Source: Sphyrna mokarran (Eukaryota). Taken from it: 64,000 nt of DNA. The notes beneath the pieces were generated by a model. The model searched no databases. It was not told where the DNA came from and was given only the letters and a program-made list of their open reading frames with translations. Shown here in pieces: positions 1 to 52,292 of this stretch. The stretch is taken from assembly GCA_024679065.1 (NCBI GenBank), contig JAGIQG010000040.1, forward strand, positions 4,092,001 to 4,156,000. The letters are read 5' to 3'. Made by a program: the position numbers and the translations under genes. Each line of letters begins with the position of its first letter. Position 1 is the first letter of the stretch.

Positions 1-1030
1 ATTTCCTGGAAGGTCTCTCTTCCCATTCTTGAACAATGGGACCACATTCGCTATCCTCCAGTGCTCTGGCACCACACCCATAACCAACGACGACCTGAAG
101 ATCAGAGCCAGAGGCTCTGCAATCTCCTCTCTTGCCTCCCAGAGAATCCTAGGGTAAATCCCGTCCGGCCCAGGGGACTTATCCAACTTCAAACCCTCGA
201 GAATATCTAGCACATCCTCCCTATCTACTTCGATACCTTCCAGTTTGCTACCCTGTACCTCAGTGTTCTCCATAACTACATTTACATCACCCTGCGTGAA
301 TACCGAAGAGAAATATTTATTCAGTGCCTCTCCAATCTCTTCAGGCTCCACGCACAACTTCCCACTGCTGTCTATGACTGGCCCTAATCTTGTCCTAACC
401 AATCTTCTATTTTTAACATATCTAAAGAAAGCTTTAGGATTCTCCTTAATCCTATCAGCCAAAGTCTTCTCGTGTCCTCTCTTAGCTCTCCTCAATTCAC
501 TCTTTAGCTCCATCCTGGCTAATCTATAGCTATCCATTGCACTAACCGAGCCTTCAAGCCTCATCCTGACATAAGCCTCCTTTTTCCTTTTAACCAGCAA
601 ATCAACTTTTTTTGTACACCAAGGTTCTCTTACTCGACCATTTCCTCCTTGCCTGACAGGGACATACTTATCAAGGACTCGCAGCAGCTGCTCCTTGAAT
701 AAGCTCCACATTCCAGATGTTCCCAGTCCCTGTAGTTTCCTAGTCCAATCTATGCACCCTAATTCTCTCCTGATGGCCTCATAATTACCCTTCCCCCAGC
801 TATAACTACTGCCCCCAGCTTCATGCCTATCCCTATCCATCACTAAGGTGAACGTAACCGAATTGTGGTCACTATCACCAAAATGTTCACTAACTTCCAA
901 GCCTAACACCTGGTCTGGCTCATTGCCCAGCACCAAATCCAATGTAGCCTCACCTCTAGTTGGCCTATCCACATACTGAGTCAAAAATCCTTCCTGCACA
1001 CTTTGTACGAAAACTGACCCCTCTAACGAG
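1..1030 (-). mobile_element. 5'-truncated CR1/HER1-type LINE (ORF2 EN-RT linker), runs off the window start
   Basis: Near-identical to 4499-5529 of the full-length CR1 copy; similarity stops abruptly at ~1030. Confidence 0.9.
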
Positions 1031-1594
1031 CTGGGCCTCTCGATTAAAAGGCCGGTGGAAACTGTCCCATCGATGAACTTGCACTTCCCTGGTGATCCAG
1101 AGAGTGTACAGTTCCCTGAGTCACATCGCCTGTGGTCACATATTTCTCGCAGCTCCCAGATAGCCTTCCCTTCCTACTTATGAGTATCTGTTATCTGACT
1201 GCTGTAACTCAGGTCTTGTTGTTGCTGAATTGATCATGATTTGTTTTTCATTCTTCATTGGGAGTTGGTGGTAAGGTCGGGTATTTTGGGGTCTGAATTC
1301 GGTGAGTTAAAACGGAATTGTTACTATTCAGAGTTGAGAATGTGTTGAGAGTAACATCTGATCTCACTAGTGATTGCTTCATTCCTGACAGCGCCAGCTG
1401 GAGACACAGAATCAGCTCATAGCTCATTTCCCCTACATTTCATCGAATCAGTTCAGACTGCCTGTTCTTCAATCGATGACGGCAGTGCGAGGAGCACGGA
1501 ACTATTTGAATTTGTTCTGACAACAACGAACTGAACAAAAGAACATCACAGAACAGGCAATAAGAACTGGAGTGGCCAATAGCGCCCGCTATTA

Positions 1595-1836
1595 GGGATG
1601 ATAATTATAGGATGGATGTCAGAGGTAGGTTCTTTACTCAGAGGGTTGTAGGGGCATGGGATGCCTGCCTGCAGCAGTTGTGGACTCGCCAACTTTAAGG
1701 GCGTTCAAATGGTCAGTAGATAGGCATATGGATAACATTGGAATAGTTTAAGTTAGAGGGTCATTAGATTCATTCCACTGGTCGGCGCAACATCGAGGGC
1801 TGAAGGGCCCGTACTGTAATGTTCTATATTCTATGC
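1595..1836 (+). mobile_element. CR1/HER1-type LINE 3' end
   Basis: 'gatgtcagaggtaggttctttactcagagggttgt' (RGRFFTQRVV), 3' UTR 'catcgagggctgaagggcc', (TTCTATG)-type tail. Confidence 0.85.
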
Positions 1837-2271: not shown

Positions 2272-2309
2272 GGCTTTCGTACGGCTGACTGTGCCTCTGT
2301 AACAGTGTG
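2272..2309 (-). promoter_or_regulatory. Degenerate 23-type recombination signal sequence of the split V pseudogene
   Basis: Minus strand CACACTG - 22 nt - ACGAAAGCC directly after YHCALSP. Confidence 0.75.
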
Positions 2310-2525
2310 GGGCTCAGCGCACAGTGATACACGGCAGAGTCAGAGACATGGACCCCGGTGATACTTAATGGAGCAGTTTTCTTGACTTTGTCGAAATCAG
2401 CAGAAAACCGGTCGGAGAAATCTGAAGATTTTCCTTCATTCCCCGTGCTATATTTCTTCAGTTAAAAACTCGGAGCTTCCCCAGGATATTGGATGTACCA
2501 GAAAAGAGTATTCTCTGTATATTTT
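2310..2525 (-). pseudogene. TRAV: TCR alpha/delta V pseudogene, 3' half (CDR1 to end)
   Basis: Translates KYTENTLFWYIQYPGEAPSF*LKKYSTGNEGKSSDFSDRFSADFDKVKKTAPLSITGVHVSDSAVYHCALSP; in-frame TAA at 2462-2464; RSS follows. Confidence 0.9.
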
Positions 2526-3138
2526 AGAACATAGAACATAGAACATTACAGCGTAGTACAGGCCCTTCGGCCCTCGATGTTGCGCCGGCCAGTGGACCCT
2601 CTAACCTAAACTATTCCAATATCATCCATATGCCTATCCATTTGAATGCCCCAAAGTAGGCGAGTCCACAACTGCTGCAGGCAGGGCATTCTACACACTC
2701 ACCACCCTCTGTGTAAAGAACCTGCCTCTGATATCCGTCCTATAACTACCATCTCTTAACTCAAAGCTATGTCCCCTCGTGCCGGCCATCACCATCCGAG
2801 GAAAAAGGACCTCACTATCCACCCCATCCAGTCCACCGGCCATCCCACACGCCCCAATCAGGTCACCACGTAACCTTCCTCTCTCCAATGAAAACAACCT
2901 CAGGTCCCTCAGCCTTCCCCACAAGGCCCCCCCACCACACCAGGCAACATCCCTGCAAACCTCCCCTGCACCCCCCCCCAAACGCCCCACACCACCTACA
3001 ATGCGGCGACCAGAACCGCACGCAACACTCCAAGTGCGGCCGCACCAGAGTTCCGCACAGCCGCAACACAACCCCACGGCTCCCAAATTCAATCCCTCCA
3101 CCAACAAAAGCCAACACACCGTACGCCCTCCCAACAAC
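2526..3138 (-). mobile_element. A-to-G hypermutated CR1 LINE, 3' part (outer element of the nested insertion)
   Basis: (TTCTATG)n tail at ~2526; from ~2780 on, T>C changes (plus strand) relative to the unmutated CR1 at 3400-3760. Confidence 0.88.
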
Positions 3139-3219
3139 ATAGAACATAGAACATTACAGAACAGGCCCTTCGGCCTTCGATGTTGTGCCGACCAAAAAAA
3201 AAAGCAATGCCCCTCCAAA

Positions 3220-5996
3220 CTAAACCATTCCCTTCTCTTCCATATACTTATCAATTAACCTCTTAAACGCCACCAAACTTGGCGCATCTACAACAGCTGC
3301 AGGCAGGGCATTCCACTCCCTAATCACTCTTTGATTAAAGAACCTACCTCTGATATCCGTCCTATAACTCATACCCCTTAATTTAAAGCTGTGTCCCCGC
3401 GTGCTAGCTTTCTCCATCCTAGGAAAAAGGCTATCACTGTCCACCCTATCTAAACCTCTAATCATCTTATATGCTTCAATAAGATCCCCTCTTAGCCGCC
3501 TCCTTTCTAACGAAAACAACTCAAATCCTTCAACCTCTCTTCATAGGACCTGCCCTCCATACCAGGCAACATCCTAGTAAACCTCCTCTGTACCCTCTCC
3601 AATGCCTCCACATATTTCTTATAATGTGGCGACCAGAACTGCACACAATACTCCAAGTGCGGCCGCACTAGAGTTTTGTACGGTTGCAACATGATGCTGC
3701 GGCTCCTAAATTCAATCCCCCTACCAATAAAAGCTAAGACTCCATATGCCTTCTTAACAACTTTATCCACTTGACTGCCTCTTTCAGGGATCTATTGACA
3801 CATACACCAAGATCCTTCTGTTCCTCAACACTATTAAGAGCCCTACCATTAGCCCTATACTCTACACATTTATTGTTCCTGCCAAAGTGCATTACCTCAC
3901 ACTTTCCCACATTAAACTCCATTTGCCACCTCTCGGCCCAGCTCTGCAACTTGTCCAAGTCACTCTGTAAACTAAAACACCCCTCTTCACTATCTACCAC
4001 ACCACCAACTTTAGTATCATCTGCAAATTTACTGATCCATCCCTCAATACCCTCATCCAGATCATTTATAAAAATTACAAACAGCAGGGCCCCCAAAACA
4101 GACCCCTGAGGCACACCACTCGTCACCGAACTCCACGATGAATATCTCCCATCAACCCCACCCTCTGTCTTCTATCTGCCAGCCAATTTCTAATCCAATT
4201 AGCTAAATCACCCTCTATTCCACACATCTGCATTTTCTGTAGAAGTCTTCCATGGGCCACCTTACCAAACGCCTTACTAAAGTCCATATATACTACATCA
4301 ACCGCCTTACCCCCATCCACCTCTTTGGTCACTTTCTCAAAAAACTCAATGAGGTTAGTAAGGCATGACCTACCCTTCACGAAACCATGCTGACTATCCC
4401 CAATCAATTCATTTCTCTCTAAATAACTATAAATCCTATCCCTAATAATTATCTCCAATACCTTGCCCACAACAGAAGTAAGACTCACTGGCCTATAATT
4501 CCCTGGAAGGTCTCTCTTCCCCTTCTTGAACAATGGGACCACATTCGCTATCCTCCAGTCCTCCGGAACCACACCCATAACCAACGACGACCTGAAGATC
4601 AGAGCCAGAGGCTCTGCAATCTCCTCTCTTGCCTCCCCGAGAATCCTAGGGTAAATCCCGTCCGGCCCAGGGGACTTATCCAACTTCAAACCCTCGAGAA
4701 TTTCTAACACATCCTCCCTATCTACTACAATACTCCCCAATTTGCAACCCTGTACCTCAGTGCTCTCCACAGCTACATTTCCAGCACTCTGCGTGAATAC
4801 CGAAGAGGAATATTTATTCAGTGCCTCACCAATCTCTTCAGGCTCCACGCACAACTTCCCACTGCTGTCTATGACTGGCCCTAATCTTGCCCTAACCAAT
4901 CTTCTATTCTTAACATATCGAAAGAAAGCTTTAGTATTCTCCTTAATCCTATCAGCCAACGTCTTCTCGTGTCCCCTCTTAGCTCTCCTCAATTCACTTT
5001 TTACCTCCTTCCTGGCTAATCTATAGCTATCCATTGCACTAACTGAGCCTTCAAGCCTCATCCTGACATAACCCTCCTTTTTCTTCTTAACCAGCAAGTC
5101 AACTTTTTTCGTACACCAAGGCTCTCTTACTCGACCATTTCCTCCCTGCCTGACAGGGACATACTTATCAAGGACTCGCAGCAGCTGCTCCTTGAATAAG
5201 CACCACATTCCAGATGTTCCCAGTCCCTGTATTTTCCTAGTCCAATCTATGCACCCTAATTCTCTCCTGATGGCCTCATAATTACACTTCCCCCAGCTAT
5301 AACTACTGCCCCCAGCTTCATGCCTATCCCTATCCATCACTAAGGTGAACGTAACCGAATTGTGGTCACTATCACCAAAATGTTCACTAACTTCCAAGCC
5401 TAACACCTGGTCTGGCTCATTGCCCAGCACCAAATCCAATGTAGCCTCACCTCTAGTTGGCCTATCTACATACTGAGTCAAAAAACCTTCCTGCACACTT
5501 TGTACAAAAACTGACCCTCTAACGAGCTAGAGCTATAGCTATTCCAATCAATATTAGTAAAGTTAAAGTCCCCCATAACAATTACCCTATTACTTTCACT
5601 CCTGACCAGAATTGACTTTGCAATCCTTTCCTCAACCTCTCTAGAACTTTTAGGAGGTCTATAAAAGACTCCCAACAGGGTGACCTCTCCTCTCCTGTTT
5701 CTAATCTCAGCCCATACTACCTCAACAGACAAGTTCTCATCAAACTTCTTTTCTATCACCGTGATACAGTCTTTGACCAATAATGCCACTCCTCCCCCCC
5801 TTCTACCTCCTTCTCTACTCCGACTAAAGCATTTGTACCCCGGAACCTGCAACATCCATTCCTGTCCCTGCTCTACCCAAGTCTCTGAAATGGCCACAAC
5901 ATCGAAGTTCCAGGTACTGGTCCAAGCTGCAAGTTCCTCCCCCTTATTGCGAATACTCCTTGCATTAAAGTATACGCATTTCAAACCATGCCCCAC
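3220..5996 (-). pseudogene. CR1 ORF2 (APE endonuclease + reverse transcriptase) broken by about four frameshifts
   Basis: YFNARS, SETW, GDFN, SDH (EN); KSPGPDG, YRPVSLTS, QHGF, GVPQGSVL, FADD (RT); consecutive overlapping ORF pieces 5478-5996, 4123-5496, 3734-4126, 3507-3770, 3220-3519. Confidence 0.92.
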
Positions 5997-6097
5997 CCCA
6001 CCCGTACGCCGCTGTGTTTTACAACTCTCTTCTATAACCCCCTTACTCTCATCCCTCTCAGCACCCCAACTACTTAGGATCCCACCGCCCCCCCGAA

Positions 6098-7024
6098 TCA
6101 GTTTAAAGCCCCCATCATAGCCTTAGCAAATTTTCCCCCCAAGATATTAGTCCCCCTCTGGTTCAGGTGTAGACCATCTCTCTTGAAGAGGTCCCACCTA
6201 TCCCAGAATGAGTCCCAATTGTTAAGGAACCTGAACCCCTCCCTCCTGCACCATCCACGCAGCCATGAGTTCAAACTTTCCCTTTCTCTGTTCTTCTCTA
6301 AACTATCCCTTGGCACAGGCAAGAGTCCAGAGATAACCACTCTGCCTGTTATGGACCTAAGCTTCCACCCTAACTCCATAAATTTCTGTTTAATATCCCC
6401 TTCCCCTGTCCTACCTACATCATGTGTCCCCACATGAACTATGACTTGGGGCTGACTCCCCTCACCCTTAAGAATCTTAAAAACCCGATCTGCGACATCC
6501 TGGACCCCAGCCCCTGGGAGGCAACACACCAGCCCTGAGTCCCGTTTATTACTATTTACCCTCCTATCTGTCCCTCTAACTATGGAGTCTCCTATAACTA
6601 GGCCTAATCTCTTATTCCCCCCACCCACCTGAGCATTCTCAGCAGGCTCACCCCCAGAGACCTGCTCCCTTTGGTCAGCTCCAGTTGATTCTTCCTCAAC
6701 TGTAGCCTCCAAGACAGAAAATTTATTTTGGAGGGGAACAGCCCCAGGGGATTGTCTCCCCGATTGCTTCTTACCCCTCCTCCTAATAGTTACCCAATTA
6801 TCACTTTTAGGAGTTACAATCTCTTTGTTACTCCTGCCTATATCCTCCTCAACCTCTCGAATTACCCTGAGTTCCTCTAATTCCAGCTCCAGCTCCTTAA
6901 CACGATCCTCAAGGAGCTGCAAATGTGCACACTTCCTGCAGGTGTAATCAGCAGGAACACTACTGGTGTCCCTCACCTCATACATACTGCAGGAGGTGCA
7001 ACGTACTACCTGCACTGCCATCAC
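6098..7024 (-). CDS. CR1 ORF1p: zinc finger, leucine zipper and SGNH/GDSL esterase domain
   Basis: CxxC...CxxC, LEDRVKELELELEEL zipper, LVIGDSIVR, HVGTHD and DGLHLN motifs; intact 308 aa. Confidence 0.9.
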   Translation of the reverse strand: MMAVQVVRCTSCSMYEVRDTSSVPADYTCRKCAHLQLLEDRVKELELELEELRVIREVEEDIGRSNKEIVTPKSDNWVTIRRRGKKQSGRQSPGAVPLQNKFSVLEATVEEESTGADQREQVSGGEPAENAQVGGGNKRLGLVIGDSIVRGTDRRVNSNKRDSGLVCCLPGAGVQDVADRVFKILKGEGSQPQVIVHVGTHDVGRTGEGDIKQKFMELGWKLRSITGRVVISGLLPVPRDSLEKNRERESLNSWLRGWCRREGFRFLNNWDSFWDRWDLFKRDGLHLNQRGTNILGGKFAKAMMGALN

Positions 7025-7038
7025 TGTTACTTTAATTT

Positions 7039-7138
7039 NNNNNNNNNNNNNNNNNNNNNNNNNNNNNNNNNNNNNNNNNNNNNNNNNNNNNNNNNNNNNN
7101 NNNNNNNNNNNNNNNNNNNNNNNNNNNNNNNNNNNNNN
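7039..7138. other. Assembly gap (100 N)
   Basis: Run of N. Confidence 1.
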
Positions 7139-7261
7139 CAGGAGAGAAAAAAAAACTTCTCACACACTTTTATTATTAGGTTAGAGGAGGGGGGAGGGTG
7201 GGATACTCTACCTGTGTAGAGTATCGGGTTACCTCTCTGGACCAATTTATAGAGGCAGAGA

Positions 7262-7645
7262 GAAAAACTACAACTACCGGCAGCCCCTAGTGACGACTTC
7301 CGGTTACAAGTTAGTTTAAATAAAAACGGCAAAAACTACTCCCGCTCGCTGTTTTAAACAAAGAGAAAAGTTAAAAAGCTACTTATCAATCGAACTTCTC
7401 GCTCTCCCAGATCGCTGCCTCTCCGTGCTGCTCCAATGGAACAATGAGGCCGATACCCAGAGGTTAGTACTTATATAGCTTAAAAACTACAACTACCGGC
7501 AGCCTCCTAGTGACGACTTCCGGTTACAAGTTAGTTTAAATATAAAACGGCAAAAACTACTCCCGCTCGCTGTTTTAAACAAAGAGAAAAGTTAAAGAAC
7601 TACTTAACAATCGATGTTAACAATCGACAAACTACTTAACAATCG
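7262..7645. repeat. Two ~130 bp direct repeats plus short TTAACAATCGA repeats in the LINE 5' UTR
   Basis: 'aaaaactacaactaccggcagcc...aatcga' at ~7262-7392 and ~7482-7614. Confidence 0.85.
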
Positions 7646-8358
7646 ACAACCCCACCAACCTGGGTTCCAACTTTCAAAGAGCCACGCACCCGCACCCCAA
7701 GATCCCTCTGCTCGACAACATTACCAAGGGTCCCTCATCAGCCCCACATTTCATATGCCCGTTATTCCTACCAAAGTAAATCACCCCACACCCATCCGCT
7801 CCGAACTCCATCTGCCATCCCACGGCCCAGCTCCACAACCTATCCACATCCCTCCGCAAACCGCAACATCCATCCCCGCCGTCCACAACTCCCCCCACCC
7901 CGGTATCATCAGCAAATCCACCAATCCAACCCTCTACACCCTCATCCAGGTCATCTACAAAAATGACAAACAGCAGTGGCCCCAAAACAGATCCCTGAGG
8001 TACACCACCCGCAACCGCACTCCAGGCTGAACATTTCCCATCAACCACCACCATCCGCCCTCCACCAGCCAGCCAACCCCCAATCCAAACCGCCAAATCA
8101 CCCTCAATCCCATGCATCCGCACCCTCCACAGCAGCCCACCATGGGGAAACCCATCAAACGCCCCACTAAAATCCACATACACCACATCAACTGCCCCAC
8201 CCCCATCCACCTCCCTGGTCACCTCCCCAAAAAACTCAATAAGGTTTGTGAGGCACGACCCACCCCCACAAAACAGCGCCAACCATCCCCAATCAACTCA
8301 TCTCACTCCAGATGCCTACAAATCCTATCCCTTGTGATTCCCTCCAAGACCCCGCCCA
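7646..8358 (-). mobile_element. A-to-G hypermutated CR1 LINE, 5' part (RT region, 5'-truncated)
   Basis: RT motifs altered by A>G: DFSKAF to DFSGAF, KFADDTK to GFADDTG, FINDLDE to FVDDLDE; colinear continuation of 2526-3138. Confidence 0.9.
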
Positions 8359-8580
8359 CTTCGTAACTGCAGTTCAATATTACCGTCTGTCCTTCCGTTA
8401 ATTCAGGCGGCTTCTGGGAAACTGAATCTTGGCCACTCGTTCCTGCAACAACATATAGAATGTGTGAGAAATCTGTGAATAAAAATAACCCGGAAACGCA
8501 CACTGAGGATTTGCACTCAGACCCACCGGGCAACATGGCCATTATTATCAGTAAAACACACGGGGAACACAGGGATCCTG
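8359..8580 (-). pseudogene. TRAV: TCR alpha/delta V pseudogene, leader exon and 5' half (FR1)
   Basis: Leader ...CSPCVLLIIMAMLP G|gtgggt (ends 8527, no upstream ATG seen); acceptor tgcag then GTSGQDSVSQKPPELTEGQTVILNCSYEV (8442-8359), joining in frame to 2525. Confidence 0.85.
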
Positions 8581-8699
8581 ATTGGAAGAAAAAGGCGACA
8601 CTATTTAAAATATGTTGCTGTTTCTAGTCTTGTATCTCCGAGTAAACTCCGGTCAGAGGCAGCTTCAATCATTGGGAAATTGGGGGCCGTTTATCAGTG

Positions 8700-8735
8700 C
8701 TGCCATTGGCTGGTGTCTCAGCTCTGATGTCAGCA
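8700..8735 (-). promoter_or_regulatory. Putative V promoter: CCAAT and CRE-like TGATGTCA
   Basis: 'attggct' ~8706 and 'tgatgtca' ~8725; a similar pair lies upstream of the intact V (~9981 'gattggct', ~10011 'ttacatca'). Confidence 0.45.
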
Positions 8736-9366: not shown

Positions 9367-9405
9367 GGTTTTTGTATGAGGTCCGTGGGAATATCTTTCA
9401 CTGTG
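9367..9405 (-). promoter_or_regulatory. Canonical 23-RSS
   Basis: Minus strand CACAGTG - exactly 23 nt - ACAAAAACC. Confidence 0.97.
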
Positions 9406-9886
9406 GGTCTCAGTGCACAGTAATACACGGCGCTATCTATCAGCTTCAAATCTTTCATGGACAAGTAAAAAGTGCTTTGTTTCTCGTTGAGATTCCCGCT
9501 GAAATGCTCAAACCCAGGAGCCGTGTCGTTAAACCCATAACTATCGACTCTAAGAAGATACTGAGGAGCTCGGTGTGGATGCTGGCGATACCAGAATAGG
9601 CTATAGCTTGTAGCTGAACTCGATACTGAGTAATTGCAGGGTATTGCTGAACCTTCACCCTCTGATGCTTCAACTCTTGGTTCCAACTGGGACACGGAGT
9701 CTCCGTTACTCATCTCTGAAGATAAACAGCAGACACCCAATGGATTAGGATTAAGAGGAAGACAATAATCAAACAGCGATGGGAAAAGGAAATTACACAA
9801 GGATCACGACATATTTTAGGCATGTTCCAGTTTCACTGACCTGCCATCAGAGTAATAACCAGAGTTAGAAATATTTTCACCCCCAT
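9406..9886 (-). CDS. TRAV: Apparently functional TCR alpha/delta V segment; leader exon 9886-9841, V exon 9715-9406
   Basis: MGVKIFLTLVITLMA|EMSNGDSVSQ...AIPCNYS...LFWYRQHPHRAPQYLL...DSAVYYCALRP; GT/AG phase-1 intron; perfect RSS. Confidence 0.95.
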
Positions 9887-52034: not shown

Positions 52035-52292
52035 GAAATTATGAGTTATAGGACGGATATCAGAGGTAGGTTCTTTACTCAAAGAGTGATTAGGGAGTGG
52101 AATGCCCTGCCTGCAGCTGTTGTAGATGCGCCAAGTTTGGTGGCGTTTAAGAGGTTAGTTGATAAGTATATGGATGAGAAGGGAATGGTTTAGTTAGGAG
52201 GGGCATTGCTTTTTATTTTGGTCGGCACAACATCGAAGGCCGAAGGGCCTGTTCTGTGCTGTATTGTTCTATGTTCTATGTTCTATGTTCTA
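52035..52292 (+). mobile_element. Young CR1 3' end, same family as the full-length copy
   Basis: Almost identical to the reverse complement of 3140-3372; (TTCTATG)n tail. Confidence 0.92.

What the first reader, a model, noticed from the sequence alone, without database searches (positions are those of the whole stretch)
2770..8358. Germline LINE copy carrying >1 kb of A-to-G hyperediting (ADAR-like footprint fixed by retrotransposition)
Seen: segments ~2780-3138 and 7646-8358 are one CR1 copy whose differences from the unmutated CR1 beside it are overwhelmingly T>C on the plus strand, i.e. A>G on the element's sense strand. Example: 8181 caccacatcaactgccccacccccatccacctccctggtcacctcccc vs 4291 tactacatcaaccgccttacccccatccacctctttggtcactttctc. 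Conserved RT residues are destroyed (KFADDTK to GFADDTG, DFSKAF to DFSGAF), while Asp/Glu codons, where A follows G, are largely spared. The last ~250 nt of the element look unedited. Known: ADAR hyperediting of dsRNA gives clustered A-to-I changes, disfavours a 5' G, and inosine is copied as G by RT; APOBEC editing would give G>A instead. Inference: an ADAR-edited LINE RNA was reverse transcribed into the germline, giving fossil evidence of dsRNA/ADAR action on shark CR1 elements.
Basis: partly seen in the sequence, partly recalled or inferred. Interest (0 to 1): 0.92.

Follow-up and report, generated by a model that had tools for sequence, protein, structure and literature searches.

The report
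RNA-editing scars in inherited LINE copies
A retrotransposon copy inside an immune-receptor gene carries about 150 one-stranded A-to-G changes with the fingerprint of the RNA-editing enzyme ADAR, and about twenty other copies in this genome show the same scar, so heavily edited RNA is occasionally written back into inherited DNA.

Summary
Confirmed and extended. Window 2525-3138 plus 7646-8359 is one 5'-truncated CR1 LINE copy (1.33 kb, minus strand). It sits in a T-cell-receptor-like V exon and is split by a younger, unedited CR1. Against 29 close siblings, 152 of 354 sense-strand adenines read G, against 26 other changes. The last ~235 nt are untouched (0 of 49). Neighbour preference is 5' U>A>C>>G and 3' G highest, U lowest, close to human ADAR1. 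Targeted searches found 21 more such copies (a few only lightly edited) on 16 other contigs, in at least three subfamilies. Each has its own tract ends and private edits; roughly 1 copy in 1,500 is affected. All are sense-strand; two antisense probes found none. CpGs created by the edits have since decayed (16/239 vs 27/1198), so the changes are old genomic DNA. No raw reads of this species were listed. Best reading: ADAR-hyperedited LINE RNA was reverse transcribed into the germline (0.88); the duplex partner is unidentified. No precedent appeared in nine literature searches; one key paper was not held. This scan earlier noted the same pattern in L1 copies of two other genomes (unchecked).

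The parts
2525..2759 (-). Unedited 3' end of the edited CR1 copy: end of ORF2, ~70-nt 3' UTR and (ATGTTCT)n tail
   Evidence: 0 of 49 sibling adenines changed; ORF2 stop placed from sibling L006
2760..3138 (-). Hyperedited tract, 3' portion (ORF2 C-terminal region)
   Evidence: 55 of 100 adenines read G; positions
7646..8359 (-). Hyperedited tract, 5' portion (RT domain), up to the 5' truncation point
   Evidence: 101 of 207 adenines read G; sibling match ends at 8359
3139..7645 (-). Younger near-full-length CR1 of another subfamily nested in the edited copy; unedited; assembly gap at 7039-7138; 5-bp overlap at 3134-3138 / 7646-7650
   Evidence: 98-99% to its own siblings; at most 1 A>G per 100 nt bin; ORF1 and frameshifted ORF2 pieces
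8360..8442 (-). 5' part of the interrupted antigen-receptor V exon (framework 1 up to the first Cys); not edited
   Evidence: translation; in four other organisms only 1 of 23 listed differences in 8413-8650 has the edit polarity
2310..2524 (-). 3' part of the interrupted V exon (CDR1 to YHCALS), with one in-frame stop
   Evidence: translation
2272..2309 (-). Recombination-signal-like sequence of the V segment (heptamer, 22-nt spacer, nonamer-like)
   Evidence: pattern scan

Best explanation
A CR1 RNA became double-stranded over a long stretch (here ~1.08 kb) by pairing with complementary CR1 RNA. An ADAR deaminated about half of its adenosines, near saturation. The RNA kept its 3' tail and was still used by CR1 reverse transcriptase for target-primed reverse transcription in a germ cell. 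Inosine templated C, so the new, 5'-truncated insertion carries G at each edited site on the sense strand. The copy was dead on arrival, later aged like other DNA and received a nested insertion. This happened independently many times, in about 1 of 1,500 copies of this family. SHOWN: spectrum, strand, context, sharp tract ends, recurrence, independence, later ageing. INFERRED: ADAR as the enzyme, the RNA stage, germ-cell timing, and that ORF2 protein came in trans or was made before editing. NOT KNOWN: whether the partner strand was an inverted copy in the same transcript or a separate antisense RNA.
For: Inside the tracts of all 22 places: A>G 1861, A>C 13, A>T 28, G>A 69, C>T 75, T>C 35. 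Context in 15 other copies, window excluded: 5' U .74, A .68, C .41, G .20 (p=1e-106); 3' G .55, A .51, C .43, U .38. Human ADAR1 is 5' U>A>C>G and 3' G>C~A>U (PMC3113232 Table 3). About 50% conversion matches hyperedited avian retroviral inverted repeats (PMC12925331). A 5-edit sense motif gave 12 hits, 11 in edited CR1 copies. Two antisense motifs gave 3+1 hits, none in a T>C tract, against roughly 12 expected if both polarities were equally common. Edits stop at the element boundary; in 12 of 22 copies the tract reaches within 15 nt of the 5' truncation. Two edited copies are split by later insertions that lack the pattern. New CpGs decayed at 16/239 vs 27/1198 (p=0.001); in the window copy 5/26 vs 0/85. 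Edits fall on codon positions 59/55/40 with 112 amino-acid changes. A_deamin domains occur at several multi-exon loci on 6 contigs.
Against: No raw reads or RNA for this species were listed. No duplex partner was found; opposite-orientation CR1 next to the new insertions is no commoner than for unedited copies (4/21 vs 16/77), though the insertion site is not the donor site. Ectopic human L1 RNA was reported unedited over >2.5 kb, and ADAR1 restriction did not need the deaminase domain (PMC5224506). Shared edits between copies exceed the trinucleotide expectation slightly (2731 vs 2580 over 90 pairs; five tested pairs p<=0.001); I read this as wider site preference, but it is not explained. 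The 3' C rate is lower than in human ADAR1. The antisense control rests on two short motifs and an estimated sensitivity. The A_deamin family also includes ADAT1 and ADAD proteins, which I did not separate.
Confidence: 0.88

Rival explanations
1. ADAR edited the RNA, but the edited cDNA was patched into an existing CR1 copy (gene conversion or template switch) rather than inserted whole.
For: Some tracts are short and internal (L149 150 nt, L146 166, L071 178, L074 177). In L149 and L071 the tract is nearer subfamily B (0.7-1.1%) than its flanks are to their nearest copies (2.4-3.5%); the unedited 5' 99 nt of L032 match another subfamily exactly.
Against: In the window copy, L065, L068, L070, L075 and L091, tract and unedited parts point to the same subfamily at similar distance. 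In 12 of 22 copies the tract runs to the 5' truncation point. The L149/L071 differences rest on 1-2 versus about 5 expected changes.
Confidence: 0.05
2. A DNA-level adenine-changing process acted after insertion: ADAR on DNA in a hybrid, a TpA-directed mutator, or polymerase-eta-type somatic hypermutation of the V locus.
For: UA is among the most edited contexts, the window copy lies in a V exon, and ADAR can act on DNA in hybrids (cited in PMC12925331).
Against: Strictly one strand, tied to the element and not the locus: sense T>C at TA is 21/1341. AA contexts are edited as much as UA. The V flank and the nested element are unedited. 21 other copies lie on 16 other contigs. Deamination of first-strand cDNA would give the opposite polarity (inference).
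Confidence: 0.03
3. Error-prone reverse transcription (dC opposite A, nucleotide-pool imbalance, or a DGR-like adenine-mutagenic RT) or another adenosine modification such as m6A.
For: Would also be sense-specific and limited to the element (inference).
Against: A>C and A>T are 13 and 28 against 1861 A>G, unlike DGR A>N (recalled). GAC, the m6A core (recalled), is among the least changed (20/125). Tracts have sharp, copy-specific ends within one reverse-transcription event, and the context matches ADAR.
Confidence: 0.03
4. Sequencing or assembly artefact.
For: No raw reads were available; an assembly gap lies inside the nested element; clustered mismatches can be sequencing errors (PMC2873906).
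Against: The artefact described there is G-to-A. The pattern skips the nested element, resumes across the scaffold gap, always follows element polarity at 22 places, and shows later CpG decay at edit-made CpGs.
Confidence: 0.01

Closest known systems
APOBEC 'DNA editing' footprints in genomic retroelement copies (Knisbacher & Levanon PMC4866542; Lindic et al. PMC3880073, lizard L1 85/32872)
   Same: Clustered, strand-biased transitions acquired during retrotransposition and fixed in a small share of copies
   Different: Those are sense G>A from cDNA deamination, mostly in LTR elements; lizard CR1 showed none. Here it is sense A>G with ADAR context. Those screens looked for G>A and used C>T as control.
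ADAR hyperediting of long dsRNA from repeats (Porath et al. PMC5625713; Eggington et al. PMC3113232)
   Same: Clusters of A>G, 5' G depleted, 3' G favoured; abundant in elephant shark brain RNA
   Different: Seen in RNA only; here the edits are in the genome sequence and have aged there
A-to-G hypermutated avian retroviruses (Rous-associated virus, avian leukosis virus; as reviewed in PMC12925331)
   Same: Nearly 50% of adenosines changed in a duplex region and carried through reverse transcription
   Different: Exogenous retroviruses, short LTR or inverted-repeat regions; not a germline non-LTR element and not a recurring genomic class
ADAR1/L1 interaction in human cells (Orecchini et al. PMC5224506)
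   Same: ADAR meets LINE ribonucleoprotein
   Different: That work found no editing of L1 RNA and editing-independent restriction; rare events near 1 in 1,500 would have been invisible to bulk Sanger sequencing (inference)
CR1-clade LINE
   Same: RT domain, endonuclease-like and esterase-like regions in the full-length neighbour, short 3' UTR, short-repeat tail, 5' truncation, no clear target duplication
   Different: Nothing unusual apart from the edits; subfamily name not assigned

Membership tests
ADAR hyperediting footprint | Dense A>G on one strand with few other changes | tested here: met
   152 vs 26; 1861 A>G vs at most 75 of any other type in 22 places
ADAR hyperediting footprint | 5' neighbour U>A>C>G | tested here: met
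   reference order from PMC3113232
ADAR hyperediting footprint | 3' G preferred, U least | tested here: met
   G .55, A .51, C .43, U .38; C is below A, whereas hADAR1 has C~A
ADAR hyperediting footprint | Edited region was double-stranded RNA | tested here: inconclusive
   Sharp tract ends fit a finite duplex; no partner identified
ADAR hyperediting footprint | Host encodes ADAR | tested here: inconclusive
   PF02137 exons on 6 contigs; not separated into ADAR, ADAD and ADAT1
ADAR hyperediting footprint | Inosine in the RNA; loss of pattern without ADAR | not testable with these tools
   no RNA run listed
APOBEC DNA editing of retroelements | Sense-strand G>A clusters | tested here: not met
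   G>A 6 vs A>G 152
TpA-directed DNA hypermutation | TA changed on both strands | tested here: not met
   sense T>C at TA 21/1341; AAG edited 265/332
DGR-type adenine mutagenesis | A changed to all three other bases (recalled) | tested here: not met
   A>C 13, A>T 28, A>G 1861
CR1 LINE | ORF2 with RT domain | tested here: met
   RVT_1, E 8e-37, in sibling L006
CR1 LINE | APE endonuclease and esterase-type ORF1 | tested here: inconclusive
   motifs recognised by eye in the nested element's frames (motif labels recalled); no profile scan
CR1 LINE | Short 3' UTR with short-repeat tail, no poly(A) (recalled) | tested here: met
   stop ~70-80 nt from the end; (ATGTTCT)n tail
CR1 LINE | Placement in the CR1 clade on an RT tree | not tested
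   no tree built

The most novel reading that the evidence does not exclude
ADAR hyperediting of LINE RNA is a recurring germline event whose products still retrotranspose. Genomes therefore hold an unscreened, datable archive of germline dsRNA: each edited copy records the extent of one duplex and the neighbour preference of the ADAR of its time, across CR1 subfamilies of different age and possibly across animal lineages.
Probability: 0.7. Interest if true: 0.85.

Novelty: new variant of a known kind. Interest (0 to 1): 0.76.

Why it matters
Whether ADAR actually edits LINE RNA that goes on to insert is open: the human cell-culture work I read found L1 RNA unedited. These copies are in vivo, single-molecule records that it happens in a germline and that RNA with inosine at half its adenosines is still a template for target-primed reverse transcription. 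A purine-collapsed, strand-aware screen makes the rate, age and lineage spread directly measurable in any assembly. Such copies also look about 16% diverged when they are about 2% old, so they mislead repeat dating and subfamily calls. The low rate (about 0.06%) says editing is a minor route of CR1 inactivation among copies that inserted; edited RNAs that were destroyed leave no record.

Tried and rejected
Raw-read check: no RNA holder listed, and no run held more than 0.10 of the words. Four contig sets from other organisms, laid on 7600-8700, gave no piece spanning the edited tract. Two contigs start at 8359 with 65 and 156 unlaid letters before it; this fits an empty site, but the letters were not shown.

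One edited subfamily or a duplicated edited copy: rejected. All 90 pairs with >=40 shared adenines have private edits on both sides. Window and L068 share the most edits (58 vs 44.8 expected) but no non-A>G variant.

Obligate hairpin in one donor: L072 and L141 come from one sub-lineage (1 non-purine difference in 493 nt; 45 shared edits, 18 and 12 private). That sub-lineage has 308 matches, and only 1 of the first 100 listed shows two or more A>G in 28 nt, so editing hits a minority of its RNAs.

Inverted neighbour at the insertion site: no enrichment. A special fold at the 3' end: z -1.1, not significant.

Dropped before counting: L076 (no tract), L145 (not CR1), and duplicate fetches of the same place. 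L146 (11/42), L074 (13/52) and L091 (36/175) are kept but light.

Literature: nine searches listed no paper on ADAR-type tracts in germline LINE copies. Carmi et al. 2011 is not held and subscription journals are mostly missing. No supplements were read; those of the APOBEC screens may tabulate A-to-G clusters.
Full report
1. What is in the window. Self-comparison shows 2528-3138 and about 7690-8359 each matching a neighbouring repeat at 73%, with plus-strand T>C dominating. A search of the genome (2.77 Gb, 1658 contigs) with 7700-8350 returned only the window at 100% and then copies at 83-84%; 40 of 3483 candidates were scored. In those siblings the two segments are contiguous with a 5-bp overlap, so they are one minus-strand copy, 5'-truncated at 8359 with its tail at 2525. 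The 4.5 kb between them is a near-full-length element of another subfamily, 98-99% identical to its own siblings, with ORF1 and a frameshifted ORF2 and at most 1 A>G per 100-nt bin. A sibling ORF2 carries RVT_1. The flanks are two halves of a V exon with a recombination-signal-like sequence at 2272-2309. They are in frame with no visible target duplication; a small target deletion is not excluded. A second V nearby is a V-set domain with TCR-alpha chains among many antibody hits, so 'TCR-alpha-like' is a resemblance. The host is a jawed vertebrate; 'shark' fits the CR1 load reported for sharks and rays (PMC13343379, passages) but was not tested.

2. The observation. Against 29 siblings, in 1313 columns with at least 80% agreement, the sense-strand changes are A>G 152 of 354 adenines, G>A 6, C>T 8, T>C 3 and 9 transversions. 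The siblings differ from their majority by 1-10 bases in about 700; they were chosen as closest to the edited copy, which slightly favours A>G in them. The tract runs from 236 to 1321 nt from the 3' end, with 156 of 307 adenines changed and 0 of 49 in the 3' remainder. The 5' neighbour rates are U .74, A .66, C .54, G .20 and the 3' rates G .64, A .54, C .42, U .31. Human ADAR1 prefers 5' U>A>C>G and 3' G>C~A>U (PMC3113232, passages and Table 3).

3. It recurs. Two 91-nt heavily edited queries (30 of 40 scored hits fetched from each) gave 15 further edited copies. A five-edit motif gave 12 hits: 11 edited CR1 copies, six of them new, and one non-CR1 hit. That makes 22 places on 17 contigs, in at least three subfamilies, with 0.2-7% background divergence. 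Tracts span 150 to about 1,950 nt, with 21-68% of adenines changed; L165 is edited along its whole 1,950 nt (342 of 534 against the nested element). The context in the other copies repeats that of the window. The unedited form of the motif occurs 74,427 times. With a context-based sensitivity of 0.23 this gives about 48 edited copies at that site, or 1 in about 1,500. This is a rough figure for one position in one family.

4. Independent events. Tract ends differ: 3' ends lie from about 0 to 524 nt from the tail. Every one of 90 pairs has private edits on both sides. Shared edits total 2731 against 2580 expected from trinucleotide context, a small but real excess. L072 and L141 derive from one sub-lineage yet were edited separately, and most of that sub-lineage's listed copies are unedited.

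5. Strand and timing. Two motifs for the opposite polarity gave four hits, all old diverged repeats or poor matches without a T>C tract. About 12 hits were expected under symmetry; that figure includes a guessed coverage factor. T>C at sense TA is 21 of 1341, which excludes a two-strand TpA process. The V flank is not edited: 1 of 23 listed differences from four other organisms has the edit polarity. The edits predate later events: the nested element here and a young antisense copy inside L167 lack them. Cytosines turned into CpG by an edit have decayed at 16 of 239, against 27 of 1198 non-CpG cytosines and 30 of 253 old CpGs; in the window copy it is 5 of 26 against 0 of 85. An instrument error would not produce that. 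No run of this species was listed, so reads were not checked.

6. Mechanism. Sense-only, element-bounded A>G with ADAR context and sharp ends is what long dsRNA edited to near saturation and then reverse transcribed would leave. The edited RNA is very unlikely to have encoded a working ORF2 protein, so the protein came in trans or was made before editing (inference). The partner strand is unknown. With a copy of this family every 40 kb or less in both orientations, either an inverted copy in a read-through transcript or a separate antisense RNA is plausible. The mostly unedited sub-lineage argues against an obligate hairpin in that donor. The genome has A_deamin loci on six contigs, not typed further.

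7. What is known. APOBEC G>A footprints in genomic retroelements are established (PMC4866542, passages; PMC3880073, passages; PMC2873906, passages). ADAR hyperediting of repeat RNA is widespread, including elephant shark brain (PMC5625713, passages). A-to-G hypermutated avian retroviruses are known (PMC12925331, passages). Human L1 RNA was reported unedited (PMC5224506, passages). Nine searches of the held library (listings and abstract starts only) showed no report of ADAR-type tracts in germline LINE copies. Carmi et al. 2011 was not held and no supplements were read, so prior mention is not excluded. Earlier notes of this scan describe the same pattern in L1 copies of two other genomes and an A>G excess in dinoflagellate LINEs; these are unchecked AI notes, not support.

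8. Verdict. Real, germline, recurrent, and best explained by ADAR-edited RNA being retrotransposed (0.88). It is a new variant of the known class of editing footprints in retroelements, with a different enzyme, substrate and stage. Interest 0.76.

Noticed in passing
window 2272-2524 and 8360-8442; 9367-9704: The locus is an antigen-receptor V cluster. The interrupted V has an in-frame stop and lacks 6 bp present in four other organisms. A second V with a 23-nt-spacer signal at 9405 has an open frame.
   Followed up: partly
window 2760; L070; L144: Three tracts from different subfamilies end 233-238 nt from the 3' end, and short unedited 3' fragments of about 240 nt occur at window 1594-1835 and 52040-52285. 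Unexplained.
   Followed up: no
L066:1965-2000: The tail region holds a 16-nt unit with two edited positions twice in tandem, as if slippage copied an already edited template.
   Followed up: no
L167 (G000:C760:27380000-27388000): A second edited copy split by a young antisense CR1 of about 1.3 kb that lacks the pattern, with a 5-6 nt overlap.
   Followed up: yes
L091 (G000:C2:52985879-52989579): A very young edited copy: 3 non-A>G differences in 1334 nt, with about 43 edits; best candidate for being polymorphic and for tracing its donor.
   Followed up: partly
window 1-1032 and 4498-5528: Another CR1 copy 95% identical to the nested element lies at the window start.
   Followed up: no
window 7263-7393 / 7482-7614 and gap 7039-7138: A 131-nt direct repeat (96%) in the nested element's 5' region, beside the assembly gap.
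   Followed up: no
L148:100-200: A small separate piece shows 9 of 22 A>G; may be another short edited fragment.
   Followed up: no
G000:C1:87878109 and 87880942: Two copies 2.8 kb apart in opposite orientation share the same rare variant, suggesting an inverted duplication that could form a perfect duplex if transcribed.
   Followed up: no
G000:C949:17306124-17387010: A_deamin exons appear twice about 67 kb apart, suggesting a tandem duplicate of an ADAR-family gene.
   Followed up: no
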